64,000 nt of DNA from Candidatus Multivoradales bacterium (GCA_965248055.1 CBDFIJ010000004.1:1792001-1856000), one strand, 5' to 3'. Counted from the first letter of the stretch, positions 70-45,201 are shown. Numbers and translations: made by a program. Notes: generated by a model not told the origin, from the sequence alone.

Positions 70-2268
70 ATGGATCTCGCAACTTGGGCATTGTTGACCG
101 CACTCGCGGCGAGCTCTGGCGCCACAGGAGAAGCCCCAGAGGCTCCCGTCGAGGAATCGATCGGAGAGGTACACGCTGTCTTTGACAACTTGACGGTGGT
201 CGGCAGTGCCGAGACAGCGGGCGGCTCCGCCCATGTCATCGGGCAAGCCCAGTTGGAGGTACACAACTACAACGACGTTCACCGAGTGCTGCGGCAGGTT
301 CCTGGAGTCAACATTCAAGAAGAAGATGGATTTGGTCTTCGACCCAACATTGGTATTCGAGGAACCGGCGTCGAACGGTCGCAAAAAATCACGTTGATGG
401 AGGACGGTGTCCTGATCGCCCCGGCGCCCTATGCAGCACCGGCCGCTTACTACTCTCCGACGGTCGGGCGGATGGAGAGCCTCGAGGTACGCAAAGGCAC
501 CAGCGCCGTGCGGCAGGGTCCACACACAACCGGGGGGGTGATCAATTATCGTTCGACCAGTATCCCGGAGTCGTTTTCTGGAAAAGCGGAGCTAGCACTC
601 GGAACCGATGGTCTGCTCCGAACCCACGCCTATGCGGGCGACAGCAACCAGCGGCTTGGCTGGCTGGTCGAGGGATATCAACTATCCAGCGATGGCTTCA
701 AGCAGCTCGATACCGCCGACAGTACCGGGTTTGACCTGACCGATCTGGTTGCCAAGTTTCGTCTCTCTTCTCGATCCGATGCCAAGATCTATCAAGCGGC
801 TGAACTCAAGCTGGGCTGGAATCAGCAAGACGGAGCCGAGACCTATCTCGGTCTTACCGCCGAAGACTTTGAACGCACTCCGTATCGGCGTTACGCCGGT
901 TCGTCGGCCGATCGCATCGACACGGAACACAATCAGTTTCAGCTATCGTATTTCGCTCAGCTCTCGCCTCGTTTCGACCTAACCGCGGTCGTCTATAACA
1001 ATGAATTTTCGCGCAACTGGCACAAGTTGCAGTCGGTAAATGGACTTGGATTGAATGCCGTCTTGAACGATCCGCAGAACCACTCGGCGGAGATTTCCGT
1101 TCTTCGTGGAGATCTCAACGCGGTCGACAGTCTCTCGGTACGCAACAACCGGCGCGACTACTTCTCGCGCGGCGTGAGCGCATCGCTAGGAGCACACGTT
1201 GACGGACGGATTCGCCACGACCTGGAAGTTGGCGTACGAGTGCATCGCGATGAAGAGGATCGTTTTCAAGAGGAAGACCTCTACAACATGAGCTTTGGAC
1301 AACCCTTGTTGTCTTCACTGGGGGCCCCCGGGAGTCAGTCCAACCGAGTTGCCTCCGCCAACGCAATCGCGGTTTTTTTTGAAGATAGCTTTTCTTTTGG
1401 AAAATGGACCGTAACGCCAGGAGCCCGCTACGAGGTCATCGATCTGGAGCGCCAGGACTATGGACGATCCGATCCCGTTAGAGGAAGTGAGCCAAGGTCG
1501 ACGACCAATCGGGTCCGCCAACTGGTTCCCGGAGTCCGGGTGCAACACGTAGTCAATGAACGCAATTTGTGGTTCGCCGGCCTCTACCAAGGTTTCTCTC
1601 CGCCAACCCCGGGATCGAACGAACGGGTCGAGCCCGAGGAAAGCGACAACATTGAAATCGGCTGGCGCTATTCCGGACGCAAGCTAGCGGCCGAAGTCAC
1701 CGGTTTCTACTCAAACTATGGCAACCTGCTTGGCACCGACACGCTCTCAAGCGGTGGTGATGGCACCGGCAACCAGTTCAACGGCGGCAGTGCCTTGGTG
1801 CAAGGACTGGAAGCCGCCGCGACGTGGGAACTGCGACCTTCCCAGTCGGCGCAAGTGCCTCTTCGCTTGGTCTATACCTACACCGACACGGAGTTTCTCT
1901 CCAGTTTTGAAACCAACTTTGCCGACTGGGCGCCTCAAGTGGAACGTGGAGACGAACTCCCGTATGTGCCCAAGCATCAACTGACCCTGGGGGCTACCTG
2001 GAATAGCCCACGTTGGTCGGTTGGCATCGACGGTAACTTGAACGGGGCGATGCGTACCCTTGCTGGCGCTGGCGCAATCCCGTCTGACAGTGGGATCCCC
2101 AGTCGTTGGACCTGGGATCTGGCGATCGAGCGCGACCTGAGCTCTTACCGTCTGTTTCTCCAGGTGCGCAACCTAACCGATAACACCTATTTGGTGGCGC
2201 GGCGACCCGCCGGACTCCGCCCGGGGATGCCAAGAACCGTGGTGGTCGGAGTAAAGGTCGACTTCTAG
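70..2268 (+). CDS. TonB-dependent receptor, FecA-like
   Basis: Signal peptide, plug motifs (LRQVPGV, NIGIRG, LMEDGV, EVRKG), VRNLTD near the C-terminus, terminal Phe; purine-rich RBS upstream. Confidence 0.92.
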   Translation: MDLATWALLTALAASSGATGEAPEAPVEESIGEVHAVFDNLTVVGSAETAGGSAHVIGQAQLEVHNYNDVHRVLRQVPGVNIQEEDGFGLRPNIGIRGTGVERSQKITLMEDGVLIAPAPYAAPAAYYSPTVGRMESLEVRKGTSAVRQGPHTTGGVINYRSTSIPESFSGKAELALGTDGLLRTHAYAGDSNQRLGWLVEGYQLSSDGFKQLDTADSTGFDLTDLVAKFRLSSRSDAKIYQAAELKLGWNQQDGAETYLGLTAEDFERTPYRRYAGSSADRIDTEHNQFQLSYFAQLSPRFDLTAVVYNNEFSRNWHKLQSVNGLGLNAVLNDPQNHSAEISVLRGDLNAVDSLSVRNNRRDYFSRGVSASLGAHVDGRIRHDLEVGVRVHRDEEDRFQEEDLYNMSFGQPLLSSLGAPGSQSNRVASANAIAVFFEDSFSFGKWTVTPGARYEVIDLERQDYGRSDPVRGSEPRSTTNRVRQLVPGVRVQHVVNERNLWFAGLYQGFSPPTPGSNERVEPEESDNIEIGWRYSGRKLAAEVTGFYSNYGNLLGTDTLSSGGDGTGNQFNGGSALVQGLEAAATWELRPSQSAQVPLRLVYTYTDTEFLSSFETNFADWAPQVERGDELPYVPKHQLTLGATWNSPRWSVGIDGNLNGAMRTLAGAGAIPSDSGIPSRWTWDLAIERDLSSYRLFLQVRNLTDNTYLVARRPAGLRPGMPRTVVVGVKVDF
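2108..2268 (+). repeat. 161-bp direct repeat, copy 1 (3' end of the TBDR gene)
   Basis: Matches 4159..4319 with about 7 substitutions by manual alignment. Confidence 0.95.
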
Positions 2269-2375
2269 CGCCGCTCCCCACTTGTCCTGGGACGCCGGCT
2301 CAAGCTGGTTGTGGCAAGATGCCAATTCTTCAGCAACCGGCTTGAAGAGACTGCCGATTCCTCGGGATCGCGATT

Positions 2376-3986
2376 ATGACGAAGAGTCCATCAAAACCCC
2401 GCAAGAGAGCCCCCTATTGGTTGGCAGTGTTCGGCCTGGCGCCAATCTTATTTGCGCCCGTTCCAGCTTTTTTGCGATACCACGGCTGGTCTGTCCTCAC
2501 CATAGATGGACTTGTCCTGGGTCTCATCTGTTTCGCAACTGCCGCATTTTTGTTTCTTATACCTGGCACTCGACGACGCCTATCGTTGAGCGGTGTTTAC
2601 GCTCTCGCGACTCTCTTTTTTTTCGACTTCCAGTTTCAAGCTCTTACCGGTTGGATCACTCTTGCCGGAGCCTTCGGCCTTGTTTTCACAGTCTGTTTCG
2701 GGCTGTTTGAAAAACTTCCGCAATTGACCACCTTTGTCTTCGGCTTGATGAGTCTTTTGGCTTTGTTCTCAGTTCCTAATAGTGACCATCGCGCTGTCGC
2801 TGGGGACCCAAACCTGCCACCGATCGTTTACTTGATCGTCGATGAGCACCTCGGAGTTGGCGGAATTCCAGCACTGGGTCGAGGTCCGGAAATCCAAGAA
2901 ATGTTGCGCGATGCGTACATCCAACGGGGATTTAGGATCTACGAAAATGCATACTCTCTCCACGATATGACCCAACACTCCATTGCCTCCATCCTCAACG
3001 GCTCGGACCGATCCGACGGGTTGGTTGAACCGGGACAGACCTCGAAGTGGAAGGTGACGAAGTCCCGTTTATTGAAACGTTGGGCCGACCAGGGTTACCG
3101 GATCAATGTCTACCAATCAGACGCGCTCAACCTTTGCGATCTGCGAGAGGTAGAAATCGATTCCTGCTACACCTACAGCGTTTGGAGCCTGACCGGAATC
3201 CTGGAAGGCTTGCCGTGGTATTCCCGGGAGCGGACCACTAGTGTCCTGTTGGCGATGGCGAACAGATCGCAGATCTTCTCCAAAGCGCGTAGTCAATATA
3301 ACAAGTTCGCGGAGCGTTCTCCGTCACTACCCGAGTGGCCCATTCGTGCTCGACCCCCAGGACCTCTGGCGATTCTTTCAGCCACCAAGGCCCTCCGCCA
3401 AGACTTGGCAAGGCAACCTAGGGGCCATGTCTTTCTTGCTCACTTGCTCCATCCACACTTTCCTTATGTCTACAACCAAGACTGCAGTGTTAAGCCAAAA
3501 GACGAATGGACTGCGCCGAAATGGAACAGGAAGGGCCGGATGCGTGACATGCGCAAAATTAGAGAAGATAACTACCCTGCTTACTTCGATCAGTTGGAGT
3601 GCGCCACGGTGATGGTAAACAAGTTGATTGATGAGATCGGAGAGCAGCCGGAGTTCCACGACGCAACGTTGATCGTTCATGGCGACCATGGCTCCCGTAT
3701 TTGGGTCAAAAAACCACTCACCTATAACAGACCAAGCGAACAAGACCTTATCGATAGCTTTTCCACCCACTTGGCGATCCGGGGCCCAGGCGTTACGCCT
3801 GGCGCCAACCTTCAGCCGGTGTCTGTCAACCAGGCAATCGCCAAGCACTGGGGTCTTCCTCTAAGACTTGAAGATAAGCCCGGGCTGTACGCAAGGCCGA
3901 ACCGGAACCAGTTTCCAAGACCCAAGCTTGCTCTACCAGAAATCTGGCGTGACTCAATCACCGATACAATGGATCAGCCAGACTAA
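2376..3986 (+). CDS. Membrane-anchored alkaline-phosphatase-superfamily (sulfatase-like/LtaS-type, NoeB-like) protein, paralog 1
   Basis: About 5 N-terminal TM helices, then PPIVYLIVDEH, YSLHDMTQHS (candidate Thr nucleophile), HLLHPHFPY, HGDHG. Confidence 0.85.
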   Translation: MTKSPSKPRKRAPYWLAVFGLAPILFAPVPAFLRYHGWSVLTIDGLVLGLICFATAAFLFLIPGTRRRLSLSGVYALATLFFFDFQFQALTGWITLAGAFGLVFTVCFGLFEKLPQLTTFVFGLMSLLALFSVPNSDHRAVAGDPNLPPIVYLIVDEHLGVGGIPALGRGPEIQEMLRDAYIQRGFRIYENAYSLHDMTQHSIASILNGSDRSDGLVEPGQTSKWKVTKSRLLKRWADQGYRINVYQSDALNLCDLREVEIDSCYTYSVWSLTGILEGLPWYSRERTTSVLLAMANRSQIFSKARSQYNKFAERSPSLPEWPIRARPPGPLAILSATKALRQDLARQPRGHVFLAHLLHPHFPYVYNQDCSVKPKDEWTAPKWNRKGRMRDMRKIREDNYPAYFDQLECATVMVNKLIDEIGEQPEFHDATLIVHGDHGSRIWVKKPLTYNRPSEQDLIDSFSTHLAIRGPGVTPGANLQPVSVNQAIAKHWGLPLRLEDKPGLYARPNRNQFPRPKLALPEIWRDSITDTMDQPD

Positions 3987-4043
3987 GACGCCGCGTCGGC
4001 TGGACGCTAACGCACTCCAAAGAAACTCCCGACTAAGAGAATC

Positions 4044-4241
4044 ATGATGAGATTCGACACCTCAAGAAACACTGCGTTTGTGATCGCAGCAGTGCTGACC
4101 ATCTGCTTGTTAATTCCGACGCCAAGCTACGCATATCTAGGCCCTGGCACCGGAGGTAGGACCTGGGATCTGGCGATCGAGCGCGACCTGAGCTCTTACC
4201 GTCTATTTCTCCAGGTGCGCAACCTAACCGATAACACCTAG
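4044..4241 (+). pseudogene. Chimera: 5' half of a YLxPGTGG micropeptide gene fused to the duplicated TBDR tail
   Basis: Signal peptide + AYLGPGTGG up to 4158, then the TBDR repeat with a TAT>TAG stop at 4239..4241; 4131..4158 matches 6154..6181 at 27/28 nt. Confidence 0.85.
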
Positions 4242-4319
4242 TTGGTAGCGCGGCGACCCGCCGGACTCTGCCCTGGGATGCCAAGAACCGTGGTGGCCGG
4301 AGCAAAGGTCGACTTCTAG
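4159..4319 (+). repeat. 161-bp direct repeat, copy 2 (degenerate TBDR tail)
   Basis: Near-identical to 2108..2268; contains a nonsense change. Confidence 0.95.
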
Positions 4320-4419
4320 ACGCCTGCAAGCGATTGTCGCGAAGCGATCCGTATCTGTGGCAAAATCGAGCGGTTCGGATATTTTGAATAGGGACGCCCC
4401 CGTCCTTGGGATCGCGATT

Positions 4420-6048
4420 ATGACGAAAATGCCATCAATGGCCATAAGGCAGGCACCCTTTAGGTTGGCAGTCGTTGGCCTAGCGCTGATTCTCTTTGCC
4501 CCGATTCCAGCCTTTCTGAGGCATCAAGAGTGGTCCGCGATCAATATCGACGGGGCCATCCTAGGACTACTTTGTCTCGCGATAGCCACACTGGTATTTC
4601 TTATCCCTGGAAGTCGGGGGCGAATCGGATTGAGCACTATCTATGCTCTAGCCATTCTCTGGTTCGTAGATTTTCAATTCCAAATGTTTTCGAGTTGGAT
4701 AGCCTTCGCTGCAGGGTCTGTCGTTGCTTTCGCAGTCTGCGTTGCCCTGTTTGAAAAGCTATCGGAACTAGCAACATTCGTCTTCGGCTTGATGATTCTT
4801 CTGTCATTGATTCCTGTGCGCAGCCGTGACCGCGAGGTAGGCGTAAGCGATCAACGGCTCCCACCGATTGTCTATTTAATCCTTGACGAACACATTGGGG
4901 TTGCAGGTGTTCCCGCTATCGAGCGTGGCCCCGAGATTCAAGAATTATTGCGTCGCGAGTACCTCCAGCGCGGGTTTCGAATCTACGAGAACGCGTATTC
5001 ACTACACGACTTCACTCACCATTCGCTCGCTTCGGTTCTCAACGCCAGTGACCGCAGCGATGGTTTCCTTCTGCCAGGAAAAAAAACCTGGCAGTGGGGA
5101 GTCCGCAAATCTAGTGTGTTGAGACACTGGGTAGATCAAGGATACCGCCTCCGAATCTATCAATCAGACTGGCTGGATCTATGTAACTTGGAGGGAATCA
5201 AAGTGGAATCTTGCTTCACCTACAGTGCCTGGAGTATTAGCAATCTGGTGGAATATCCGTGGAATTCGGTTGAACGAACTAGTGGGATTCTTGTCGTCAT
5301 AGCGAATCGCTCACAAATTCTTCTTAAGATTCGCGGTTGGTATGACAGCCTTTCCAAGCAGGGTTTTGGAGGCTTGAACCTTCCAATGTGGCCGGTACGA
5401 GCTAGCCGACCGGGTGCCTTGGTCGTCCGTTCCGCGACCAAGGTATTGCAACACGATCTTGAGTCCAATCCGCGGGGAACCGTTTTTCTCGCTCACCTGC
5501 TACATCCTCATTCTCCTTATGTATATGACGCCAACTGTGGGGTAAAGCCCAAAGGTGATTGGGCGGCACCATCGCTAGATCGAAAAGGTAAGGTAAGGGC
5601 TCTGCGGGAGAGCCGGACGACTCACTATCGTGATTACTTCGATCAGCTCGAGTGTCTAACCACCCAGATAGGAGAGCTAATTGATGCGATTGGTGAAAGT
5701 ACCGAGTTGAGAGATGCGACTGTTCTAATCCACGGTGATCATGGGTCTCGTCTTTGGGTCAAACCACCGCGTACCTACAACAAGCCTACTGAAAGAGACT
5801 TGTTGGATACTTTCTCAACTTTTCTTGCTGTTCGCGGCCCAATGATCCAGCCCGAACTCAATATTGAACCTGTACCCGTAAATCAAATTGTCGCCGAACT
5901 CGCGGAGGTTCCGTTTGTTCTTCATGACGGTCCCGCGCCATACTCACGACCGAACTACTATGATCCTCCTCGTCACAAGTTGCCCCTTCCGTCGATCTGG
6001 CGGACATCGAACAACACACCTAAGGTCCGTCCGAAAACCCTCAACTAG
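4420..6048 (+). CDS. Membrane-anchored alkaline-phosphatase-superfamily (NoeB-like) protein, paralog 2
   Basis: Same motifs (YLILDEH, YSLHDFTHHS, HLLHPHSPY, HGDHG); start placed at ATG 4420 because GGGATCGCGATTATGACGAA is shared with the paralog 1 start. Confidence 0.85.
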   Translation: MTKMPSMAIRQAPFRLAVVGLALILFAPIPAFLRHQEWSAINIDGAILGLLCLAIATLVFLIPGSRGRIGLSTIYALAILWFVDFQFQMFSSWIAFAAGSVVAFAVCVALFEKLSELATFVFGLMILLSLIPVRSRDREVGVSDQRLPPIVYLILDEHIGVAGVPAIERGPEIQELLRREYLQRGFRIYENAYSLHDFTHHSLASVLNASDRSDGFLLPGKKTWQWGVRKSSVLRHWVDQGYRLRIYQSDWLDLCNLEGIKVESCFTYSAWSISNLVEYPWNSVERTSGILVVIANRSQILLKIRGWYDSLSKQGFGGLNLPMWPVRASRPGALVVRSATKVLQHDLESNPRGTVFLAHLLHPHSPYVYDANCGVKPKGDWAAPSLDRKGKVRALRESRTTHYRDYFDQLECLTTQIGELIDAIGESTELRDATVLIHGDHGSRLWVKPPRTYNKPTERDLLDTFSTFLAVRGPMIQPELNIEPVPVNQIVAELAEVPFVLHDGPAPYSRPNYYDPPRHKLPLPSIWRTSNNTPKVRPKTLN

Positions 6049-6066
6049 CAATCGCAGGAGAATAAA

Positions 6067-6312
6067 ATGACGTCCTTCAGCTCAAGGAATATGACAGCCC
6101 CAACCTTGGTAGCAGTTGCCCTGTGTCTACTACTATCCCCTACCCCTGGGCATGCATATCTAGACCCTGGCACCGGAGGTATGGCGATTCAGGCGTTGAT
6201 CGCCATCCTCGCCGGAACCTGGCTCGCCATCCGGCTTTTTTGGTCGAGAATCGTTAGATTTTTCAAGCCAAAAGGATCTGATTCGGCATCGCCAGATTCA
6301 GAATCATCGTAG
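6067..6312 (+). CDS. Small membrane protein: signal peptide + YLDPGTGG + TM helix + basic/Ser-rich tail
   Basis: AGGAG RBS; hydrophobic leader ending PGHA; motif conserved in the truncated paralog at 4044. Confidence 0.85.
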   Translation: MTSFSSRNMTAPTLVAVALCLLLSPTPGHAYLDPGTGGMAIQALIAILAGTWLAIRLFWSRIVRFFKPKGSDSASPDSESS

Positions 6313-6355
6313 CGGAAGACTCTGGTTTTCAAGCCTTTCTTGATTCTCTTCCTCA

Positions 6356-7753
6356 ATGTATAACCCTGTGGAAACTGGCCTCCCTGAAGCTGAAGGGGGA
6401 TCGTTTCGCGACCCTCGCGGCCACGTTCATATTGCCAACGGGCGGGTTTTTCGCACCATCTCTCCAGCCGCTTTGGACGACTTCCGTATGGTTGTCGAAT
6501 CCGGAGTGGTCGCCAAGCTCGAAGAGTCTGGCGATCTGGTACCGACCTGGGAGACGGATCAAGCAACCCCGAACACTACCGGTGACGCCAGTGTGGTCGT
6601 TGAGCATCCCTGCTTACCACTCATCAGCTACCCCTACGAATGGCCTTTTCAGCTGCTCAAACGAGCCGCATTGTTTCATCTCGACTTTCATCTCAAGTGC
6701 TTGGAGCACCGGGTGACCCTGACCGATGCGACGGCCTACAACGTCCAGTTTGTCGGGGTACGACCCGTTTTCATCGATCGCTTAGCTCTCAAACCCTATT
6801 TCGAGGGCGAGTACTGGGCTGGGTATCGTCAGTTTTGCGAGCAGTTTCTCAATCCGCTGCTCCTGTCGTCTTTTCACGGAATCCCAATCCATCAGTGGTA
6901 TCGGGGCTCGATTGAGGGAATCTCTGCTCGTGATACCGCCACCCTACTTCCACTGAAACGACGACTATCTCCTCGAGCTTGGATGCACGTGACACTTCAG
7001 GCCCGCCTCAATCGCGAACAGACTGCCCAAGTCTCCGACCGGGTCATCAAGCAACGCCCCTTGCCGCTCCCCGCTCTTCAGAGCATGCTACGGAGCTTCC
7101 ACAAGTGGATCTCCCGATTGCAACCTCCTCAACGACCCACCGTTTGGGCAGACTACGACTCCACCCACGGATATACCGATACCGAGCAAGAGAAGAAAGC
7201 TAAAGCGATCGCGCGGTTTATCGAGGGCCACAAGCCAACAACCGTTTGGGACCTGGGTTGCAATACCGGGTTTTACTCGCAGATCGCATTGCAGCACGGA
7301 ACGTCCTCAGTGATCGGACTGGACCTGGATGAAGGGGCCTTGGGAGGGGCTTTTGATCGCGCTCAATCCGAAAACCTAACCCTGACACCTTTGTTGTTCG
7401 ACGCCGCCAACCCAACCCCGGCACAAGGATGGCGTCTGCGGGAGCGCAGCAGACTCGCTGAACGCTCAACCCCGGATGGCATTCTTGCCTTGGCAGTCCT
7501 GCACCATATGGTCTTAGGCCGCAATATCCCGCTACCGGAGGCGATCAAGTGGCTGGTGGGTCAAGCGAAGTGTGGCGTCATCGAGGCGGTACCCCGCACC
7601 GACCCACAAGTGAAGCGGATGATGGTCTTTCGAGACCATCATCATGAATATGGGGTTGAAGAGATACGCCAGGAGCTGGCAAGGCAAGCCACCGTCACAG
7701 AAACCGTCGTGGTATCGGAGTCAGGTCGAGAGTTGTTGTTTTTCAAGCGCTAG
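6356..7753 (+). CDS. NoeA-like protein: N-terminal kinase-like domain + C-terminal class I SAM methyltransferase
   Basis: GSFRDP, SYPYEW, DATAYN (DxxxxN), FID; then WDLGCNTG, GLDLD, ALAVLHH. Confidence 0.85.
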   Translation: MYNPVETGLPEAEGGSFRDPRGHVHIANGRVFRTISPAALDDFRMVVESGVVAKLEESGDLVPTWETDQATPNTTGDASVVVEHPCLPLISYPYEWPFQLLKRAALFHLDFHLKCLEHRVTLTDATAYNVQFVGVRPVFIDRLALKPYFEGEYWAGYRQFCEQFLNPLLLSSFHGIPIHQWYRGSIEGISARDTATLLPLKRRLSPRAWMHVTLQARLNREQTAQVSDRVIKQRPLPLPALQSMLRSFHKWISRLQPPQRPTVWADYDSTHGYTDTEQEKKAKAIARFIEGHKPTTVWDLGCNTGFYSQIALQHGTSSVIGLDLDEGALGGAFDRAQSENLTLTPLLFDAANPTPAQGWRLRERSRLAERSTPDGILALAVLHHMVLGRNIPLPEAIKWLVGQAKCGVIEAVPRTDPQVKRMMVFRDHHHEYGVEEIRQELARQATVTETVVVSESGRELLFFKR

Positions 7754-8979
7754 AATGCGGAGTCCACGACCACTTTGACAAATCGCCTCTTGCCCACCTT
7801 GACCACATAACCGGAGAGATTGTCTGGCAATTCAACCCGAGGGTCTTGGGCTCTTTCACCGTCGATCGACACCGCGCCCTGCTGAACCAACCGTTGAGCC
7901 TCTTTGTTGGAGGACGCCAGCCCCGCGAAGGTAAGTGCTTTAAACAGTTGCATCGGAACGATCGAGACCTGTGGAATGTCTTCCGGAATGCCTCCGTCGG
8001 AAAACACTTCGCCAAACTCTCGGGCCGCTTGGTCCGCCACCGAATCGCCATGCAGATCTGCAGTTAGCGTCTGCGCCAATTGACGCTTGGCGTCCATCGG
8101 ATGGAGATCGCCCTCGGAGACTCGATCCTTCAAGGCTTCAATCTCCACCTCTTGTAGATCGGTCAATAATAGCCACCAATCCCACATCTGCTGATCGGAG
8201 ATCGACATCGTCTTGCCATAGACCTCCGCCGGCGGGTCGGTCAACCCGATCGCATTGCCGAGACTCTTGGACATTTTGTCGACGCCGTCAGTGCCTACCA
8301 ACAGCGGCACAGTCAAGACCACTTGAGGTTCCATGCCTTCCTCTTTCATCAACTGACGACCTACCAGTAGATTGAAGATCTGGTCGTGACCGCCCAACTC
8401 AACGTCTGCTTTCATGGCAATCGAGTCGTAGCCTTGAACCAAGGGATAGAGCAACTCGTGGATACTGATCGGCTGGTTTGCCGCGAAACGAGTACGAAAG
8501 TCGTCACGCTCCATCATCCGCGCCAAGGTGTAGCGACCAGCGAGCCGAATCAGCCCTTCTGACCCCAACTCGTCGAGCCACCTGGAGTTGTAGTCAATCG
8601 TGGTTTGCTCTCGATCCAGAATGCGCACCACTTGCTCTTCATAGGTGCGGGCGTTGGTTAGCACCTCTTGGGCAGTGAGTTGAGGCCGGGTGGCCTTCTT
8701 GCCCGTCGGGTCGCCTATTCGTGCAGTGAAGTCGCCAACCAGAAAGACCACTGAGTGTCCTAAATCTTGGAAGTGCTTCATCTTGCGCAGCAAGACGGTG
8801 TGCCCGAGATGAAGATCAGCCGTTGAAGGATCAAAGCCAGCCTTGATCGTCAGCGGCTGGCCAGACTTGCGCGACGCCTCCAGCTTGCGCGCAAACTGCT
8901 CGGAATTAATCAGGTCAACCGAACCCCGACTGAGCAGGGCTAGCTGCTGCTCAACTGGAAGAAACTCCGAATTAGACAC
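7750..8979 (-). CDS. tyrS: Tyrosine--tRNA ligase
   Basis: GFDPS...HLGH, KMSKS, C-terminal S4 domain. Confidence 0.97.
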   Translation of the reverse strand: MSNSEFLPVEQQLALLSRGSVDLINSEQFARKLEASRKSGQPLTIKAGFDPSTADLHLGHTVLLRKMKHFQDLGHSVVFLVGDFTARIGDPTGKKATRPQLTAQEVLTNARTYEEQVVRILDREQTTIDYNSRWLDELGSEGLIRLAGRYTLARMMERDDFRTRFAANQPISIHELLYPLVQGYDSIAMKADVELGGHDQIFNLLVGRQLMKEEGMEPQVVLTVPLLVGTDGVDKMSKSLGNAIGLTDPPAEVYGKTMSISDQQMWDWWLLLTDLQEVEIEALKDRVSEGDLHPMDAKRQLAQTLTADLHGDSVADQAAREFGEVFSDGGIPEDIPQVSIVPMQLFKALTFAGLASSNKEAQRLVQQGAVSIDGERAQDPRVELPDNLSGYVVKVGKRRFVKVVVDSAF

Positions 8980-9199
8980 CGCAGGAGCTTAGCATCGGCC
9001 AAGCAAATCACTACCAAGAGGAACAGATACGTCGGCTACAGGTACGTGAACACCATTGGGATGTCGAGCCTAGATCCAGAGCCTGAGGTGCTGGGTCTAC
9101 GACGACTGTCGAGTGTGCTGACGATATTACCAAGCGAAGAGTCGGGACCGTTCGCGGGGACATTGATTAGCAGCGATAGCTCCTGAGGCAGAGGCAACG

Positions 9200-10568
9200 G
9201 AGTTATTGTCAAAAGTTGTGTATTGAGCCATCAGGCGGCGATCTGTTTTTGTTTTTCTCCGTCCACGAACTGGAGACCTTCAACGACTTCGGCAATGCGC
9301 CTGTAGCCCTGTAGCCTCCGCCATCGTTTTTCTGCGCTTTGGCACAGCTTGAAGACCATCGAGAGCATGGTTTCTCGCGACAGACAGCCCCGGGTTTTGG
9401 AGGTTCTCAAGCGTACGGTAGCAAAAGTTGATGCGATTGGGTTGGTGGTCCTCAAATGCACCCAGTGCTCAGCCGGGAAATCGTAGAAAGCGAGTAGCTG
9501 GACGCGATCTTTGACCAAGCACTGGACTGCTTTCGGATATTTAGCTTGGTAGATTGCCTGGAATGCATCAAAAGCCCTCTCGGCATCGTGACGTGTCTGC
9601 GCCATCCAGATTTGGTGGATTGCCTGCTTGGCCTTGGGCTGGATCGCCTTGGGGAGCTTATTCAAGACGTTGGCCGTCTTGTGGACCCAGCAGCGCTGGG
9701 TCTTGGTATTTCCCCACACCTGAGCCAGAGCCTTCCAGAAACCCAGATTGCCGTCACCGATTGCGATCTTAGGCTCGAATGTAAGGCCTCTTGCTTCCAG
9801 GCCTCGCAACAGCTCCAGCCATGACGCCTCACTCTCCCGGTAACCGTCTTCAACAGCGATCAGTTCTTTGTTGCCGTCCGCAGTGGCACCAATTAACACC
9901 AGCAAGCAGAGCTTGGCGTTATCCAGGCGAGCCTTGCAGTAAATGCCGTCAGCCCATACATAGACGTAGCGCTTGGACGAAAGATCGCGCTGCCGCCATT
10001 CGCTGTACTCCTGGCCCCAGACGCGTTTGAGGCGGCTCACCGTCGAAGACGAAAGACCTGGCGCTTCAGGGCCCACCAAAGCTTCCAGAGCTCGTGAGAA
10101 GTCCCCGGTAGAAATCCCCCGTAAGTATAGCCAGGGCAAGAGATCCGCGATGCTCTTGGACCGGCGCAGATACGGTGGCACTAGATTGGAGCGAAAATGA
10201 AGCTCACCCTGGCGATCCCGCACCCGTGGCACTTTGACCGAAATGCCGCCGATTCCGGTCTGGATCTCCCGCTCTGGCATGTAGCCGTTTCTCACCAACC
10301 GCCGGTGACCGACCGCCGTACGTTGATCTTGGTACTCAACCAAAAAACTCTCCACCTCTGCCTCGATTGCTTCGCAAAGAAGCAACCGTGAACCTCGGCG
10401 CAAGACCTCGGTCAGAGCGTCCTCAGGACGCTCTACTTGATCGATTGAAACTACGTTACTCTTGCTCAACGGCGTGTCCTCCTTTTGGGATGATTGAACC
10501 CAGCTTTGAAAACCGGGCTCAGGATACGCCGCCTTCAAACTCTCATACACAACTTTTGGTTATATCTC
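9200..10568 (-). mobile_element. IS256-family insertion sequence (1369 bp)
   Basis: Imperfect terminal inverted repeats GAGTTATTGTCAAAAGTTGTGTAT and GAGATATAACCAAAAGTTGTGTAT (reverse complement); perfect 9-bp TSD GAGGCAACG at 9191..9199 and 10569..10577. Confidence 0.95.
9231..10469 (-). CDS. IS256-family (mutator) transposase, probably catalytically impaired
   Basis: RNGY, VPRVRD, WADG, IGDG, QRCWVH; TNPIAS in place of TNPIES; TTG start after GGAGGA. Confidence 0.93.
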   Translation of the reverse strand: MSKSNVVSIDQVERPEDALTEVLRRGSRLLLCEAIEAEVESFLVEYQDQRTAVGHRRLVRNGYMPEREIQTGIGGISVKVPRVRDRQGELHFRSNLVPPYLRRSKSIADLLPWLYLRGISTGDFSRALEALVGPEAPGLSSSTVSRLKRVWGQEYSEWRQRDLSSKRYVYVWADGIYCKARLDNAKLCLLVLIGATADGNKELIAVEDGYRESEASWLELLRGLEARGLTFEPKIAIGDGNLGFWKALAQVWGNTKTQRCWVHKTANVLNKLPKAIQPKAKQAIHQIWMAQTRHDAERAFDAFQAIYQAKYPKAVQCLVKDRVQLLAFYDFPAEHWVHLRTTNPIASTFATVRLRTSKTRGCLSRETMLSMVFKLCQSAEKRWRRLQGYRRIAEVVEGLQFVDGEKQKQIAA

Positions 10569-10794
10569 GAGGCAACGTGGTTGACCCCACATGCACAACA
10601 TCTCTTAACTATCGTTGCATTCCGCGGCACCACGGTTACATCTCGGTACAATTAATCAAGGATCTGGCAATATGTGTAGTGGACCTGCATGAAAACCAAT
10701 CGCCGGTTCGCCCGTCTTCGTCCGTTGCAGACATTCCAAGTGCGAGCACTAATAAGGTTCTTCGTCTTGATGCCAAGGTCTCCTAGGAGTCCCG

Positions 10795-12366
10795 TTGACT
10801 GACAGCAAACGTAGCTCCACTTCACCGAAGATCTCCTTCTGGACAGCTGTTCTCGCGCTAGCCCTGATTCTTTTCGCTGTCTTCCCACCGTTTTTTCGTC
10901 ACCATGGCTTGTCGTTTCTAAGCCTGGAGCTTGTCGCTTTCGCCTTGATCTGCGGTTTTTTATCTAGCGTACTTCACCTCATCCCCGCGACTAGAACGCG
11001 GTGGTTTTCAAGCACAATCTTGGGTGCTGCCTTGACTCTGCTTATCGACATTCAATTCGGTTCGATCTCAAGCGAGCTTTCTCTGATCGGACATCTCTTC
11101 GTCACAACGGGTGTTTGCGTACTTTTGTTTCCCCATGCTCATCGAGTGCTCACGGCGTTCGCTGGAGTTCTTATCCTGCTTTCTCCAACCGTGGCCACCA
11201 AAAGCACCAGCACTCCCAGTCACCACCAGATCGAACGAGACACTTCGTTGCCGCCGATTGTCTATCTGATTCTCGATGAACACATCGGCATAGGAGGTAT
11301 CTCCAATCAGTTTGTACAAGAGCGCACCAAGATTCTCGGTGAATACATACAACGGGGATTCCTAGTCTACGAAAACGCTTACTCACTGCACGACATGACT
11401 CTTGCATCCATGGGATCTCTTCTTAATGCCCGCCCGACAGTTGAGCATGCGATCGAAGGCAATCGTCAAGAAGGCTTCTCTTTATCGAAATCTGTACTCT
11501 TTCGGTATTGGGCAGATCTAGGATATCGCTTCTCTATCTATCAATCTGAGTATCTTGATTACTGCTCTGCAGCAAAACCGGCGGTCGACCTCTGCATAAC
11601 CTACGATCAATACATTGGGCTCGACGTTCTGAAACCTCTTGAGACCATCGACTACACGGTCACCGCACTATTCTCAAGATCCGAGATTGCTATGAAAGGA
11701 AGGGTCCGTTACAACTTTCTACGTAACAAGGTACCCCAGTCGATACGGCCGCCACGATTGCCTCCGCCGCCAACCGGCTCTTGGGCGGCAAGATCTCGTG
11801 TCGCATTGGATGAGATGCGCAAACAGGCGCTTGTCGACCCAGAAGGAAGAGTATTCTTTGCACACCTACTCCATCCGCACAAACCGCACATCTATGACCA
11901 GGAGTGCCGCCCAAGGAGGTCGACGAGGTCGTCGATCCTTTCGTCTTCGCATTACATGGACCAAGTGTTGTGCATTACAAAGCAGCTCGGCGAAACCCTT
12001 GACGAATTGCTCTCGCTCCCTTCATTCAAAGATGCTGTGGTAGTTGTCCACGGAGATCACGGTCCTAGGCTTATGGGGGATCTTGCGCTCAATGGTGACA
12101 AGGAGATCCCACAGGAATTCATCATTGATAGGTTTTCAACATTCCTTGCGATAAAGACACCTGAAGTTGCTTCTGGTATAACTCGGTTTCCCACTTCGAT
12201 CAACTCAGAAATTCCTGCAATTTGGTCTATACCCAACTCCGTACCCCACAAACCTATGCTTCAATTGACCCAAAACCTTATGACGGTTGAGTCACTGACA
12301 GATCGGAAAGTGCAGGCCATCAACCTTCCGGATTTTTGGGGTTTATCGGTGTCCATGAAGCCTTGA
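10795..12366 (+). CDS. Membrane-anchored alkaline-phosphatase-superfamily (NoeB-like) protein, paralog 3
   Basis: TM N-terminus; PPIVYLILDEH, YSLHDMTLAS, HLLHPHKPH, HGDHG; AGGAG before the TTG start. Confidence 0.85.
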   Translation: MTDSKRSSTSPKISFWTAVLALALILFAVFPPFFRHHGLSFLSLELVAFALICGFLSSVLHLIPATRTRWFSSTILGAALTLLIDIQFGSISSELSLIGHLFVTTGVCVLLFPHAHRVLTAFAGVLILLSPTVATKSTSTPSHHQIERDTSLPPIVYLILDEHIGIGGISNQFVQERTKILGEYIQRGFLVYENAYSLHDMTLASMGSLLNARPTVEHAIEGNRQEGFSLSKSVLFRYWADLGYRFSIYQSEYLDYCSAAKPAVDLCITYDQYIGLDVLKPLETIDYTVTALFSRSEIAMKGRVRYNFLRNKVPQSIRPPRLPPPPTGSWAARSRVALDEMRKQALVDPEGRVFFAHLLHPHKPHIYDQECRPRRSTRSSILSSSHYMDQVLCITKQLGETLDELLSLPSFKDAVVVVHGDHGPRLMGDLALNGDKEIPQEFIIDRFSTFLAIKTPEVASGITRFPTSINSEIPAIWSIPNSVPHKPMLQLTQNLMTVESLTDRKVQAINLPDFWGLSVSMKP

Positions 12367-12409
12367 ATACTCGTGTTGCTGCCCAAAGCCACTTCGTTAC
12401 CTTAGTTCG

Positions 12410-13186
12410 CTAGTTGCAAATCTCACCCTGCGCCAATAACCGAGCATCGCCTCGCAGGTACGCCTGGCCATCGGCAAACTCGGCAATCAGTTCAAAGCCG
12501 GCCGCTGTCACCACAGTGAAGGGCTCGGAACCGCTGGCAAGGCACCAAGCGGTGGCAATGACTCCAGTTCCAGAGGCTAAAGTCTCGTCTTCGACCCCCC
12601 GCTCAAAGCTACGCATGTCCACCACGCTCTTCAACCGCTCCTGGACAAATGCGACGTTGGCTCCTTCAGGCTTCAAGTCTTGATGGCCACGGATTGCCGC
12701 GCCCAAGTGAACTACCGGGACTTCCTGCAGTGGACCCTCCCAGGGCAGTACCGCGTAGGGTACGCCGACATCCACTAGGTGGACGGTGAATTCGCCATCC
12801 TCCACGGCGAGGGGCCTGACCTCAATCTGTGGTGATTGCCATTCCCAGTTGAGGGCCACGGTCTCAGGGTCCAATACCTGGCCGCTCACCGGACCACTGT
12901 CTGTGGCAATCGTCAGAGAATCACCCCAATCTAGCTCTGAGGCCAATCGCACAGCGCAACGGACACCGTTGAGGCACAGCTCAGCCCGCCCTCCATCAGC
13001 GTTGAAATGGACCATCCGCACCTGGATATCTTGACGCCTGAGAACGAACACCCCGTCTGCTCCCAGTGAGACGCCTCTGCGGCATACCTGCTGGACCCAC
13101 CGTGCATCCGGGTCTTCTTTTGGCTCGACCAGGACGATGAAGTCGTTGCCCGCACCAGAAAGCTTGTAAAACGGTGTCCGCGCCAT
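12410..13186 (-). CDS. dapF: Diaminopimelate epimerase
   Basis: GAGNDF, GADG, ELCLNGVRC, ANV, ERGVEDETLASGTG. Confidence 0.93.
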   Translation of the reverse strand: MARTPFYKLSGAGNDFIVLVEPKEDPDARWVQQVCRRGVSLGADGVFVLRRQDIQVRMVHFNADGGRAELCLNGVRCAVRLASELDWGDSLTIATDSGPVSGQVLDPETVALNWEWQSPQIEVRPLAVEDGEFTVHLVDVGVPYAVLPWEGPLQEVPVVHLGAAIRGHQDLKPEGANVAFVQERLKSVVDMRSFERGVEDETLASGTGVIATAWCLASGSEPFTVVTAAGFELIAEFADGQAYLRGDARLLAQGEICN

Positions 13187-38044: not shown

Positions 38045-38252
38045 GATGAAGTACCGGTACGATTGTATCCGCGGTGGCGATTGGTTTTAACCACCCTCTC
38101 TGAGCCTTTTTCTCCTCCCTGGGCTTCGCTTGGGGTTCTGGCCGCTCGTCCAACGGCGGCGTGGTGCAACTTTTGCAGCCGAATTGGTTGCGAGCTACAA
38201 GATAGCCAACCACGTGCCGGATTGGCGCTTGTTATTGTTGGGCTTCCTGACG

Positions 38253-44896: not shown

Positions 44897-45187
44897 ATGA
44901 TTGTTTCTTTCGGGGATTCTGCAACCGAGGCTTTGTTTCATGGTGGTCCTCATCGAGCGACGCGGAGATTGCCTACCAGTATTCAACGTGCAGCATTTCG
45001 CAAACTGGATATGTTGAATGTAGCTGTGAATTTGAACGATCTTCGCGTTCTTCCAGGAAACCGACTGGAAGCTCTGAAAGGTGACCTAAAAGGGCTTCAC
45101 AGTGTCCGCATTAATAATCAGTGGCGCCTCACTTTCCGCTGGGAAGCAGGAGAAGCGCACGAAGTAATGATCATCGACTACCACTGA
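44897..45187 (+). CDS. higB: HigB toxin (RelE/ParE family)
   Basis: MIVSF, RKLDML, PGNRLEALKG, SVRINNQWR, DYH. Confidence 0.95.
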   Translation: MIVSFGDSATEALFHGGPHRATRRLPTSIQRAAFRKLDMLNVAVNLNDLRVLPGNRLEALKGDLKGLHSVRINNQWRLTFRWEAGEAHEVMIIDYH

Positions 45188-45201
45188 GGAGAGCTAGCTC
45201 A

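What the first reader, a model, noticed from the sequence alone, without database searches (positions are those of the whole stretch)
2376..12366. Candidate surface-modification system: kinase-methyltransferase + three LtaS-like transferases + YLDPGTGG micropeptide
Seen: a cytoplasmic protein with a kinase-like catalytic loop (DATAYN, FID) fused to a SAM methyltransferase (WDLGCNTG...AVLHH). It sits with three paralogous 5-TM proteins whose soluble domains keep DEH / Thr / HPH / GDH and conserved Cys pairs, and with a tiny membrane peptide. Known: a Thr nucleophile with this motif set is typical of phospho-transferases such as LtaS and EptA, not of formylglycine sulfatases (no CxPxR here). E. 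coli WbdD uses a kinase plus a similar MTase to make a methyl-phosphate cap. Rhizobial NoeA/NoeB are, to my knowledge, biochemically unresolved. Inference: the kinase-MTase makes a methyl-phosphate (or similar) donor on a lipid or carrier, and the paralogs transfer it to different surface glycans or proteins, giving a diversifying envelope decoration.
Basis: partly seen in the sequence, partly recalled or inferred. Interest (0 to 1): 0.78.

Follow-up and report, generated by a model that had tools for sequence, protein, structure and literature searches.

The report
NoeA/NoeB envelope cassette with micropeptide
This is a local copy of a very widespread but never biochemically solved three-gene bacterial cassette (a tiny membrane peptide, the kinase-like/methyltransferase NoeA and the EptA/LtaS-like membrane enzyme NoeB), here with the NoeB gene multiplied to three copies; it probably decorates the cell envelope, but what it adds is still unknown.

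Summary
6356-7753 encodes a soluble protein whose N-domain folds as a protein kinase and whose C-domain is a class I SAM methyltransferase. 2376-3986, 4420-6048 and 10795-12366 are membrane paralogs of Pfam Sulfatase PF00884. Their Thr199 aligns with the EptA nucleophile. 6067-6312 encodes a small single-helix membrane peptide.

The system is not new. The enzyme is 41% identical to Sinorhizobium meliloti NoeA, and paralog 1 matches NoeB (E 1e-44). The S. meliloti operon holds the same peptide between nodL and noeA. The triad was described bioinformatically in 2022 (Legionella Lani_1193/1194/1195), and papers still call noeA/noeB function unknown.

In 80 related loci the peptide accompanies NoeA in 77 and a NoeB-like gene in 59. 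Natural peptide-NoeA fusions exist. Peptide fusions to NoeB-like and TagF-like enzymes exist too.

My reading: the peptide anchors NoeA at the inner face of the membrane, and the NoeB copies act as Thr-nucleophile phosphotransferases outside. The methyl-phosphate donor idea is untested and gets no specific support from WbdD.

Local additions are a tandem duplication that killed one peptide copy and a recent IS256 insertion. Verdict: new member of a known, uncharacterised kind, of moderate interest.

The parts
70..2268 (+). TonB-dependent receptor. It is context only, but its last 164 nt are the left end of the duplicated unit.
   Evidence: Pfam TonB_dep_Rec_b-barrel 1.2e-38 and Plug 4.2e-13. 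Repeat D1: 2105-2268 matches 4156-4319 at 95%.
2376..3986 (+). NoeB-like paralog 1. It has a polytopic N-terminal membrane domain and an alkaline-phosphatase-superfamily domain with E157, T199, H361 and D437-H438.
   Evidence: PF00884 at 37.5 bits. 28% identity, E 1e-44 to S. meliloti NoeB. hhalign to E. coli EptA/B/C, OpgE, BcsG and OpgB at 93.9%. Hydropathy.
4044..4241 (+). Dead chimeric micropeptide gene. It has the signal-like N-terminus and YLGPGTGG, then continues in frame with a copy of the TonB-receptor C-terminus. It has no membrane helix after the motif.
   Evidence: Translation. The junction lies at 4156-4158. The micropeptide profile matches weakly, E 1.8e-6.
4156..4319 (+). Remnant copy of the TonB-receptor 3' end. 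It marks the start of duplication unit 2 (units about 2105-4155 and 4156-6181).
   Evidence: 95% identical over 164 nt. Windows of 93-97% identity, against 50-70% for the paralog genes.
4420..6048 (+). NoeB-like paralog 2. The ORF is open from GTG 4357; the start homologous to paralog 1 is ATG 4420.
   Evidence: PF00884 at 30.1 bits. 56% identity to paralog 1. The 542-aa form is in the database as P0124.
6067..6312 (+). Intact micropeptide (81 aa). It has a signal-peptide-like N-terminus ending GHA, the motif YLDPGTGG, one membrane helix, and a basic then acidic tail.
   Evidence: Profile E 4.9e-25. The family holds 15,387 representative clusters at E<=0.001.
6356..7753 (+). NoeA homolog. Residues about 12-255 form a kinase-like domain with invariant R33, D124, N129 and D141. 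From about residue 262 it is a class I SAM methyltransferase with GCNTG and HH383-384.
9191..10577 (-). IS256-family insertion between tyrS and paralog 3. It is not part of the system. Inverted repeats lie at 9200-9223 and 10545-10568, with a 9-bp target duplication GAGGCAACG.
   Evidence: NCBIfam transpos_IS256 1.7e-94. Inverted repeat I1. Flanking sequence.
10795..12366 (+). NoeB-like paralog 3, the most diverged. It keeps all catalytic residues and four Cys, and lacks about 19 residues in the C370-C409 loop.
   Evidence: PF00884 at 36.9 bits. 37% identity to paralog 1. Residue positions.

Best explanation
The region holds a copy of the widespread micropeptide-NoeA-NoeB cassette.

Shown:
- The 465-aa protein is a soluble two-domain enzyme: an atypical protein-kinase-like domain plus a class I SAM methyltransferase. 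It is homologous over its full length to rhizobial NoeA.
- The three membrane paralogs are NoeB homologs of the alkaline-phosphatase superfamily. Their metal ligands and Thr199 align with the catalytic Glu, Thr, His and Asp-His of EptA.
- The 81-aa product belongs to a very large family of one-helix peptides. The gene almost always sits directly upstream of noeA.

Inferred:
- The peptide inserts with its short YLDPxxGS N-terminus outside and its basic tail inside, and tethers NoeA to the inner face of the membrane. E. coli BcsF does this for BcsE next to the phosphoethanolamine transferase BcsG.
- NoeA uses ATP and SAM on a membrane-embedded lipid or lipid-linked glycan.
- On the outer face, each NoeB copy takes a phospho-headgroup from a membrane lipid onto Thr199 and passes it to its own envelope acceptor, as EptA/B/C, OpgE and BcsG do.

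The chemical group and the acceptors are unknown.

Locally, a tandem duplication made a second noeB and destroyed one peptide gene. A third noeB lies beyond tyrS and a recent IS256 insertion.
For: **Identity**
- 6,889 of the 8,000 candidates scored matched at E<=0.001. One is named 'Nodulation protein NoeA' by UniRef.
- tblastn against plasmids found 65 records, 57 of them Sinorhizobium, at 40.9% identity over 98% of the query. The hits are annotated noeA.
- The pSymA locus reads nodL, a 71-aa hypothetical (..AHA-YLDPGTGS..), noeA, noeB.
- Paralog 1 matches NoeB with E 1e-44.

**Folds**
- Full model: pLDDT 83.9, pTM 0.87. N-domain model: pLDDT 86.0.
- 44 of the 46 listed Foldseek rows are named kinases or pseudokinases; best E 7.8e-5, TM 0.29-0.46.
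- R33, D124, N129 and D141 are invariant in 26 and in 27 sequences.

**NoeB**
- hhalign at 93.9%, E 1.6e-7, over 230 columns. It pairs E157 with EptA E244, T199 with T282, H361 with H385, and D437-H438 with D455-H456.
- E. coli T282 aligns with the Neisseria nucleophile Thr280 (passages of PMC6111236).

**Co-occurrence in 80 loci**
- The peptide is present in 77, and adjacent in 75.
- A NoeB-like gene is present in 59.
- Of the 59 loci with at least 2.5 kb on both sides, 56 have the peptide, 43 have NoeB and 40 have both; 7 hold two or more NoeB copies.
- The profiles were built from 34 of these peptides and 9 of these NoeB genes, so those rows match by construction.
- An earlier plain regex gave 56 hits among 13,977 ORFs, of which 3 were unrelated.

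**Anchor role**
- −1 Ala occurs in 65 of 77 and −3 Ala in 57 of 77 copies before the motif.
- A basic stretch follows the helix.
- Natural fusions exist: peptide-NoeA (P0146, P0150, full NoeA profile coverage), peptide-NoeB-like (P0153), and peptide-TagF-like PF04464 (P0151, P0157, P0158, P0159; the last has 24 members on 7 contigs).
- Complex prediction of NoeA with peptide residues 31-81 gave weak support: score 0.40, best of 3 controls 0.00. The mark was reached by 116 of 157 solved complexes and 2 of 215 mismatched pairs. At 0.60 or under it was reached by only 18 of those 157 and by both mismatches that passed. The runs agree in at least 73% of contacts, and the partner pLDDT is at least 64.

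**Analogy:** BcsF recruits BcsE; BcsG is the transferase (passages of PMC11470070; gene order).
Against: - No activity, substrate or product is known for any member. [quoted passage not shown]
- The most conserved part of the peptide is the outside motif: Y 77/77, D 77/77, P 73/77, S 70/77 and Q 75/77. A mere anchor does not need this, and cytoplasmic NoeA cannot reach it.
- The window's peptide has Gly where 70 of 77 copies have Ser.
- 21 of 80 loci show no NoeB-like gene within the DNA held. These include the closest NoeA relatives, L003-L008.
- The two clean peptide-NoeA fusions are single sequences on single metagenome contigs. They could be frameshift or assembly artefacts. P0147, P0148 and P0162 look garbled.
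- The complex score is weak by the tool's own calibration.
- The kinase matches are distant (TM below 0.5).
- Flanking genes in the 80 loci are heterogeneous and point to no acceptor.
Confidence: 0.55

Rival explanations
1. NoeA phosphorylates and then O-methylates a lipid or carrier, making a methyl-phosphate donor. The three NoeB paralogs transfer that group to different surface glycans or proteins.
For: - A kinase-like domain and a methyltransferase sit in one chain. WbdD phosphorylates and then methylates the phosphate (abstract of PMC3482155).
- The NoeB catalytic residues are conserved.
- The peptide module also occurs on TagF-like phospho-transfer enzymes that act at the membrane.
Against: - The domain order is opposite to WbdD.
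- WbdD matches only as one of at least 500 generic methyltransferase hits. It is absent from the 46 listed kinase-domain rows.
- By established knowledge of the family, EptA/LtaS-type enzymes use ordinary phospholipids as donors (PMC6111236 passages).
- No flippase or glycan-assembly genes lie in the window.
- No methyl-phosphate product is reported for any NoeA carrier in the papers I saw.
Confidence: 0.2
2. The micropeptide is itself the substrate. NoeB modifies its exposed Tyr, Thr or Ser on the outside, as pilin and flagellar rod proteins are modified by related transferases. NoeA may also phosphorylate or methylate its acidic, Ser/Thr-rich cytoplasmic tail.
For: - The outside motif is invariant: Y and D in 77/77, S in 70/77.
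- A NoeB-like gene is present in 59 of 80 loci.
- In L045 a peptide gene precedes a NoeB gene as well as NoeA.
- A peptide-NoeB-like fusion exists (P0153).
- That related transferases modify proteins is recalled knowledge, not checked here.
Against: - The peptide goes with NoeA more often than with NoeB (77 against 59 of 80).
- The window's copy has Gly at the Ser position, and Thr is replaced by Ala in 4 of 77.
- Several tails have no Ser or Thr at all, for example L061 and L068.
- Fusion to cytoplasmic enzymes fits an anchor better.
Confidence: 0.12
3. NoeA and NoeB do not share a pathway. NoeB copies are ordinary phosphoethanolamine or phosphoglycerol transferases that use bulk phospholipids. 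NoeA with its peptide modifies an unrelated membrane-proximal target. They are neighbours because they are co-regulated.
For: - 21 of 80 loci have NoeA and the peptide without a NoeB-like gene nearby.
- Paralog 3 here is a separate transcription unit, beyond tyrS on the other strand.
- In the E. coli BcsEFG complex, BcsE and BcsF make no direct contact with BcsG (passage of PMC11470070).
Against: - A NoeB-like gene abuts NoeA on the same strand, often overlapping its stop, in most of the 59 positive loci.
- The arrangement holds across many phyla.
- The published survey found 38% co-occurrence in 816 neighbourhoods (PMC9758233, section 8).
Confidence: 0.13

Closest known systems
Sinorhizobium meliloti pSymA operon nodL-(71-aa ORF)-noeA-noeB
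   Same: - Same three proteins, with the peptide directly before noeA.
- NoeA is 40.9% identical over 98% of its length.
- NoeB matches at 28% identity, E 1e-44.
- The peptide carries AHA-YLDPGTGS plus one helix.
   Different: - Here noeB lies upstream of the peptide and noeA, and is present three times.
- There is no nodL or nod box, and the window holds no nodulation genes.
- The rhizobial genes affect host range genetically. That comes from Ardourel 1995, which I did not read; it is only cited by PMC9758233 and PMC4053727.
Legionella anisa Lani_1193 / Lani_1194 / Lani_1195 (Sci Rep 2022, PMC9758233)
   Same: - The paper defines the family: a kinase-like domain plus a methyltransferase, with R in place of the catalytic Lys and conserved D, N and D.
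- A small hypothetical neighbour is found in 65% of 816 neighbourhoods, and an alkaline-phosphatase-fold neighbour in 38%. The latter matches EptA 5FGN in HHpred at 3.2e-27 (section 8 and supplementary file 6).
   Different: - The paper gives no motif or topology for the small protein and reports no fusions.
- It suggests secreted effectors. Nothing in this window suggests secretion into a host.
EptA / MCR-1 / LtaS-type membrane phosphotransferases (Pfam PF00884)
   Same: - An N-terminal polytopic membrane domain followed by an outside alkaline-phosphatase-fold domain.
- The Glu, Thr, His and Asp-His catalytic set aligns.
- Conserved Cys pairs fit an oxidising compartment.
   Different: - Sequence similarity is very low. 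HMMER finds only the GDHGS region, and a single EptA sequence gives no hhalign match.
- Donor and acceptor are unknown.
- The genes are linked to NoeA and the peptide, which EptA and LtaS are not.
E. coli WbdD (kinase + methyltransferase that caps O9a antigen with methyl phosphate)
   Same: A protein-kinase-like domain and a class I methyltransferase in one membrane-associated cytoplasmic enzyme (PMC3482155 abstract). The methyltransferase folds match (4azs, E 8.5e-7).
   Different: - Opposite domain order and no coiled coil.
- The kinase domain is not among the listed matches.
- No O-antigen assembly or ABC-transporter genes lie nearby.
- This is an analogy of architecture, not membership.
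E. coli bcsE-bcsF-bcsG
   Same: A cytoplasmic protein, a one-helix peptide that recruits it through its cytoplasmic tail, and a PF00884-type phosphoethanolamine transferase, all encoded side by side (PMC11470070 passages).
   Different: - There is no sequence relationship between BcsF and this peptide, or between BcsE and NoeA.
- BcsF has no conserved outside motif that I know of (recalled).
- The Bcs proteins belong to a cellulose synthase complex, which is absent here.

Membership tests
NoeA / Lani_1194 family | Full-length homology to proteins named NoeA | tested here: met
   40.9% identity over 98% of the query to S. meliloti pSymA noeA, E 1e-90. 6,889 matches at E<=0.001 among the 8,000 scored.
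NoeA / Lani_1194 family | N-terminal protein-kinase-like fold with conserved Asp..Asn catalytic loop and a DFG-like Asp | tested here: met
   N-domain model pLDDT 86.0. 170 Foldseek matches at E<=0.001, and 44 of the 46 listed rows are named kinases. D124, N129, D141 and R33 are invariant. Kinase activity itself is not testable here.
NoeA / Lani_1194 family | C-terminal class I SAM methyltransferase | tested here: met
   The whole-protein Foldseek list is all methyltransferases, with prob 1.00. Pfam methyltransferase models match residues 287-385, but all fall below their cut-offs; the best is FtsJ at 23.5 against 24.1 bits.
NoeA / Lani_1194 family | Conserved neighbours: a small hypothetical protein and an alkaline-phosphatase-fold membrane protein | tested here: met
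   Both are present in the window. In 80 loci the peptide is in 77 and a NoeB-like gene in 59.
NoeB / PF00884 membrane phosphotransferases (EptA, LtaS type) | Pfam PF00884 above the gathering score | tested here: met
   37.5, 30.1 and 36.9 bits against a 25-bit cut-off. S. meliloti NoeB scores 41.7 bits.
NoeB / PF00884 membrane phosphotransferases (EptA, LtaS type) | Thr nucleophile and metal ligands in the EptA positions | tested here: met
   hhalign at 93.9%, E 1.6e-7. T199 pairs with E. coli EptA T282, which aligns with Neisseria Thr280. This rests on alignment only; no structure model of the paralogs was made.
NoeB / PF00884 membrane phosphotransferases (EptA, LtaS type) | Five membrane helices placing the catalytic domain outside | tested here: inconclusive
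   Four strong hydrophobic segments and one weak one, after a basic N-terminus. Four invariant Cys in the soluble domain fit an outside location.
NoeB / PF00884 membrane phosphotransferases (EptA, LtaS type) | Transfer of a phospho-headgroup from a phospholipid to an envelope acceptor | not testable with these tools
   Needs enzymology or mutant lipid and glycan analysis.
Formylglycine sulfatases | C/S-x-P-x-R motif at the nucleophile position | tested here: not met
   The aligned position reads HDMT(199)QHSIAS in all three paralogs.
WbdD-type O-antigen terminators | Methyltransferase-kinase-coiled-coil order and a specific relationship of both domains | tested here: not met
   The order is reversed (PMC3482155 abstract). 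There is only a generic methyltransferase match. WbdD is absent from the 46 listed kinase-domain matches.
WbdD-type O-antigen terminators | Phosphorylation followed by methylation of that phosphate | not testable with these tools
YxDPxxGS micropeptide family (Lani_1193-like; no Pfam or NCBIfam model) | Signal-like N-terminus, the Y-[LIV]-D-P-x-x-G-S motif, Q four residues on, one helix and a basic flank; the gene lies directly upstream of noeA | tested here: met
   Window copy 6067-6312 matches the profile at E 4.9e-25. It deviates only by Gly at the Ser position, which is seen in 3 of 77 other copies. The copy at 4044-4241 fails: it has D to G, no helix, and a chimeric C-terminus.

The most novel reading that the evidence does not exclude
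The cassette is a two-sided, membrane-spanning modification machine of a kind not yet described. The micropeptide is more than an anchor. Its invariant outside end (Tyr, Asp, Pro, Ser, Gln) would work with the NoeB active site as acceptor, carrier or co-factor. Its tail would hold NoeA inside. Cytoplasmic phosphorylation and methylation would then be coupled to an outside transfer that installs an unrecognised envelope substituent such as methyl phosphate. With 15,387 peptide clusters, this would be one of the commonest unassigned envelope modifications in bacteria, and it would explain the 30-year-old noeA/noeB host-range phenotype.
Probability: 0.15. Interest if true: 0.8.

Novelty: new member of a known kind. 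Interest (0 to 1): 0.45.

Why it matters
- noeA and noeB have been known as host-range genes since 1995. That comes from Ardourel 1995, which I did not read. They are still called functionally unknown.
- Their family is large. More than 6,800 NoeA matches were scored, and there are 15,387 representative clusters of the peptide, across many phyla.
- If the cassette adds a phospho-substituent to the envelope, it bears on surface charge, resistance to antimicrobial peptides, and recognition by hosts.
- This window does not make the question easier than S. meliloti already does.
- The comparisons made here give testable handles: the peptide's motif and topology, its presence in the classic nodL-noeA-noeB operon, its natural fusions to NoeA, NoeB-like and TagF-like enzymes, and Thr199 as the residue to mutate.

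Tried and rejected
- **Sequence searches of the PDB.** The NoeA homolog gave only weak methyltransferase motif hits, best E 0.0048. The paralog profiles matched only the GDHGS region of sulfatases and LtaS. A weak LtaS 'domain 1' alignment (E 1100) does not cover the nucleophile, so I discarded it.
- **hhalign of the paralog profile against a single E. coli EptA sequence.** Probability was 1.3%. It worked only against a six-protein E. coli profile.
- **Foldseek on the whole NoeA model.** It returned only methyltransferases and hid the kinase domain, so I folded the N-domain separately.
- **ESM Atlas.** The peptide's nearest clusters are unnamed hypothetical proteins (0.91). The NoeA N-domain scored only 0.76. 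Neither was informative.
- **Promoter and terminator scan of 1900-12500.** It found 2 promoter-like sites against 5.8 expected, and 10 terminator-like sites against 10.3 expected. There is no signal.
- **Pfam scan of 102 genes flanking the cassette.** These were taken from the 136 flanking ORFs listed; I dropped 34 by hand, mainly ORFs under about 130 aa and ones overlapping the peptide gene. There is no recurrent partner pathway, only scattered glycosyltransferases, Wzy_C, RmlD-type enzymes, a DAG-kinase-like protein, PAP2, patatin and TonB receptors.
- **A recent simple tandem duplication as the origin of paralogs 1 and 2.** I rejected this as a full account, because the receptor remnant is 93-97% identical while the paralog genes are 50-70% identical.
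- **A nodulation or host-effector role here.** I did not adopt it. No nod or secretion genes are in the window.
- **Literature search for the motif strings.** YLDPGTGS, YIDPGTGS, YLDPGSGS and DPGTGS found only one unrelated paper. A search for Lani_1194 found only the 2022 paper.

Full report
**1. Observation**

Gene 6356-7753 encodes 465 aa with LTDATAYNVQF...PVFIDRL in its first third, and VWDLGCNTG and LALAVLHHMV in its last third. It has no strongly hydrophobic segment.

The three membrane paralogs are 2376-3986, 4357/4420-6048 and 10795-12366.
- Paralogs 2 and 3 are 56% and 37% identical to paralog 1.
- All three keep DEH, Thr199, HPH, GDH and four Cys.
- All three pass Pfam PF00884 above its cut-off.
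- They have four strong hydrophobic segments and one weak one after a basic N-terminus. Five helices is plausible but not proven.

Gene 6067-6312 encodes an 81-aa peptide. It has a signal-peptide-like start ending GHA, then YLDPGTGG, one helix and a basic flank.

**2.

ORF 4044-4241 starts like the peptide (…SYA-YLGPGTGG). After that it continues in frame with a copy of the last residues of the TonB-dependent receptor encoded at 70-2268. Repeat analysis shows that 2105-2268 matches 4156-4319 at 95%, with a period of 2051 nt. So the segment from the receptor 3' end through noeB to the peptide 5' end is tandemly duplicated, and the junction killed the first peptide copy.

The receptor remnant is 93-97% identical to its source, while the two noeB copies are only 50-70% identical in DNA. 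I cannot explain this. Gene conversion of the remnant is one possibility.

Paralog 3 is not contiguous with the rest. tyrS lies on the opposite strand and overlaps the end of the kinase-methyltransferase gene by 4 nt. After it comes an IS256-family element with 24-nt inverted repeats and a 9-bp target duplication, GAGGCAACG. The whole 64-kb window holds one noeA, three noeB and two peptide genes, one of them dead. The rest of the window is ordinary chromosomal content.

**3. The kinase-methyltransferase is a NoeA homolog**

A protein search scored 6,889 matches at E<=0.001 among 8,000 candidates.
- All matches are about 460-480 aa.
- The best outside match is 50% identical.
- One is named 'Nodulation protein NoeA' by UniRef. 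Others are named class I SAM-dependent methyltransferase or, by JGI, PrmA.

tblastn against plasmids found 65 records, 57 of them Sinorhizobium. The S. meliloti hits, annotated noeA, are 40.9% identical over 98% of the query.

AlphaFold2 with 26 homologs gave pLDDT 83.9 and pTM 0.87. Foldseek on the whole model returned only methyltransferases, among them PmtA-type 8ys9, WbdD 4azs and NodS 3ofk.

I folded residues 1-255 alone, which gave pLDDT 86.0. Foldseek then gave 170 matches at E<=0.001. Of the 46 rows listed, 44 are named protein kinases or pseudokinases, including EGFR, Fyn, CK2, Tyk2, RioK1 and bacterial PknS. The other two are complexes: a pre-40S particle and IRGa6-ROP5C. The best E is 7.8e-5 and TM scores are 0.29-0.46. 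The fold is therefore kinase-like but distant.

R33, D124, N129 and D141 are invariant in 26 full-length and in 27 N-domain sequences. The 2022 paper assigns these same positions to PKA K72, D166, N171 and D184.

**4. The paralogs are NoeB homologs with an EptA-type active site**

Paralog 1 aligns with the annotated S. meliloti NoeB over 484 columns at 28% identity, E 1e-44.

HMMER against PDB sequences reached only the GDHGS region. A profile of 30 NoeB-like proteins against a profile of E. coli EptA, EptB, EptC, OpgE, BcsG and OpgB gave 93.9% probability, E 1.6e-7, over 230 columns. The column pairs are:
- E157 with EptA E244;
- T199 with T282, the second Thr of GTAT;
- H361 with H385;
- D437-H438 with D455-H456 (residue numbers).

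E. coli EptA aligns with Neisseria EptA (5fgn) at E 5.9e-146. There T282 falls on the Thr of GTSTA, and the Glu-to-Thr spacing becomes 40. That matches Thr280, which PMC6111236 calls the catalytic nucleophile that carries the phosphoethanolamine intermediate (passages). The partner residue number E240 is recalled, not checked.

There is no formylglycine motif. I made no structure model of the paralogs.

**5. The micropeptide**

An alignment of 35 copies shows invariant Y, D, P, G, G and Q. Over 77 copies in related loci the counts are:
- Y 77, D 77, P 73;
- Ser at motif position 8 in 70, and Gly, as in this window, in 3;
- Gln four residues after the motif in 75;
- Ala at −1 in 65 and at −3 in 57.

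The Ala pattern looks like a signal-peptidase I site. Some copies have only a few residues before the motif (L073 starts MYIDPGAGS). After the helix comes a basic stretch (consensus YW.K.K..F) and then an acidic tail. This predicts N-terminus out and C-terminus in.

The family has no Pfam or NCBIfam model. An exhaustive profile search found 15,387 representative clusters at E<=0.001 and 7,173 at 1e-10. All of the best 150 are 60-161 aa. No paper in the library holds the motif strings.

**6. Co-occurrence**

A scan of one genome per species found at least 595 noeA loci, of which 80 were kept. They come from Acidobacteriota, Alphaproteobacteria, Gammaproteobacteria, Nitrospira, Chloroflexota, Gemmatimonadota, Actinomycetota and others. 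The best identity to the window's protein is 49% (L054, a partial match); over near-full-length matches it is 48%.

With profiles of the peptide and of NoeB:
- The peptide is in 77 of 80 loci. In 75 it lies directly upstream of noeA, mostly on the same strand.
- A NoeB-like gene is in 59 of 80.
- Among the 59 loci with at least 2.5 kb on both sides, 56 have the peptide, 43 have NoeB and 40 have both; 7 hold two or more NoeB copies. L071 has three in tandem, and L045 has peptide-B-peptide-A-B.
- The profiles were trained on 34 of these peptides and 9 of these NoeB genes, so those rows match by construction.

An earlier regex pass gave 56 hits in 13,977 ORFs, of which 3 were unrelated.

The nearest NoeA relatives (L003-L008) show no NoeB within 10 kb. 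Flanking genes vary and name no acceptor pathway.

**7. Fusions**

I searched longer proteins with the peptide profile. It found 17 at E<=0.001. They include:
- Two clean peptide-NoeA fusions, P0146 and P0150. Each covers the full NoeA profile, and each is a single sequence on one contig.
- A peptide-NoeB-like fusion, P0153.
- Four peptide-TagF-like proteins (PF04464), P0151 and P0157-P0159. One of these clusters has 24 members on 7 contigs.

Others (P0147, P0148, P0162, P0154) look frameshifted or truncated. In every clean case the enzyme follows the helix. That fits a peptide C-terminus in the cytoplasm and an anchoring role.

A complex prediction of NoeA with the mature peptide gave weak support.
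- The score was 0.40, against 0.00 for the best of 3 controls.
- The mark was reached by 116 of 157 solved complexes and 2 of 215 mismatches.
- At 0.60 or under it was reached by only 18 of those 157, and by both mismatches that passed.
- The runs agree in at least 73% of contacts, and the partner pLDDT is at least 64.

**8. What is in print**

- PMC9758233 (section 8 read; supplementary tables searched) defines the Lani_1194 family as kinase-like plus methyltransferase and equates it with NoeA. It reports Lani_1193 (small, no domain) in 65% and Lani_1195 (NoeB, alkaline-phosphatase fold, HHpred EptA) in 38% of 816 neighbourhoods. It compares the architecture with WbdD, and it leaves the function open.
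- PMC4053727 links a truncated noeA to poor nodulation (passage).
- I did not see Ardourel 1995.
- The S. meliloti pSymA record annotates a 71-aa hypothetical gene between nodL and noeA. It is a member of the peptide family.

**9. Mechanism**

My preferred reading has three parts.
- The peptide holds NoeA at the inner face of the membrane.
- NoeA uses ATP and SAM on a membrane-embedded substrate.
- The NoeB copies act outside as Thr-nucleophile phosphotransferases with different acceptors.

The E. coli bcsE-bcsF-bcsG arrangement is a worked precedent for a cytoplasmic protein, a recruiting peptide and a PF00884 transferase.

What the data show: the folds, the conserved residues, the gene linkage and the fusions. 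What is inferred: the peptide's topology, its binding to NoeA, the substrates, and any coupling between NoeA and NoeB.

The strongest point against a pure anchor is that the outside motif is the most conserved part of the peptide.

**10. Verdict**

The system is a further member of a known, widespread cassette that has never been characterised experimentally. Its local peculiarities are threefold noeB, a dead chimeric peptide gene and an IS256 insertion. Interest is moderate. The open question is old and broad, but this window adds handles rather than answers.

Noticed in passing
window 2105-2268 vs 4156-4319, against 2376-3986 vs 4420-6048: The duplicated remnant of the TonB-receptor 3' end is 93-97% identical to its source. 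The noeB genes in the same duplicated units are only 50-70% identical in DNA. The remnant carries a stop (TAG at 4239-4241) where the receptor reads on. Gene conversion or a composite origin are possible; neither is resolved.
   Followed up: partly
window 9191-10577: An intact IS256-family element: a 439-aa transposase, 24-nt inverted repeats and a 9-bp direct target duplication, GAGGCAACG. It sits in the divergent region between tyrS and noeB paralog 3 and may affect that gene's promoter.
   Followed up: partly
window 7750-7753: The noeA homolog (+) and tyrS (-) converge and overlap by 4 nt at their 3' ends.
   Followed up: no
proteins P0151, P0157, P0158, P0159: The YLDPxxGS-helix module also forms the N-terminus of TagF-like CDP-glycerol glycerophosphotransferase-family proteins (PF04464). 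One cluster has 24 members on 7 contigs. So the module is a more general membrane anchor for cytoplasmic phospho-transfer enzymes.
   Followed up: partly
L086:3763-3978 (S. meliloti pSymA, CP140958.1): The classic nodL-noeA-noeB operon contains a fourth gene, annotated only as hypothetical (71 aa). It is a member of the micropeptide family.
   Followed up: yes
L045 (about 7527-13185) and L071 (about 4068-10391): Other genomes also carry several NoeB copies. L045 has peptide-NoeB-peptide-NoeA-NoeB, and L071 has three NoeB genes in tandem after NoeA. Paralog arrays are therefore a recurrent trait.
   Followed up: partly
window 38130-43199: Three consecutive HlyD-family membrane-fusion genes are followed by a MacB/FtsX-type permease gene.
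   Followed up: no
window 44897-45489: A HigB-like toxin gene overlaps an HTH_3 antitoxin-like gene: a type II toxin-antitoxin pair.
   Followed up: no
window 54982-56028: An rve-type integrase/transposase gene next to panE and a B12-binding radical SAM gene. This is a second mobile-element trace in the window.
   Followed up: no
window 13200-14405 (-): A 401-aa protein with a lipoprotein-like N-terminus, an acidic low-complexity region and fibronectin type III domains. Its N-terminus matches the LptM signal model below the cut-off.
   Followed up: no
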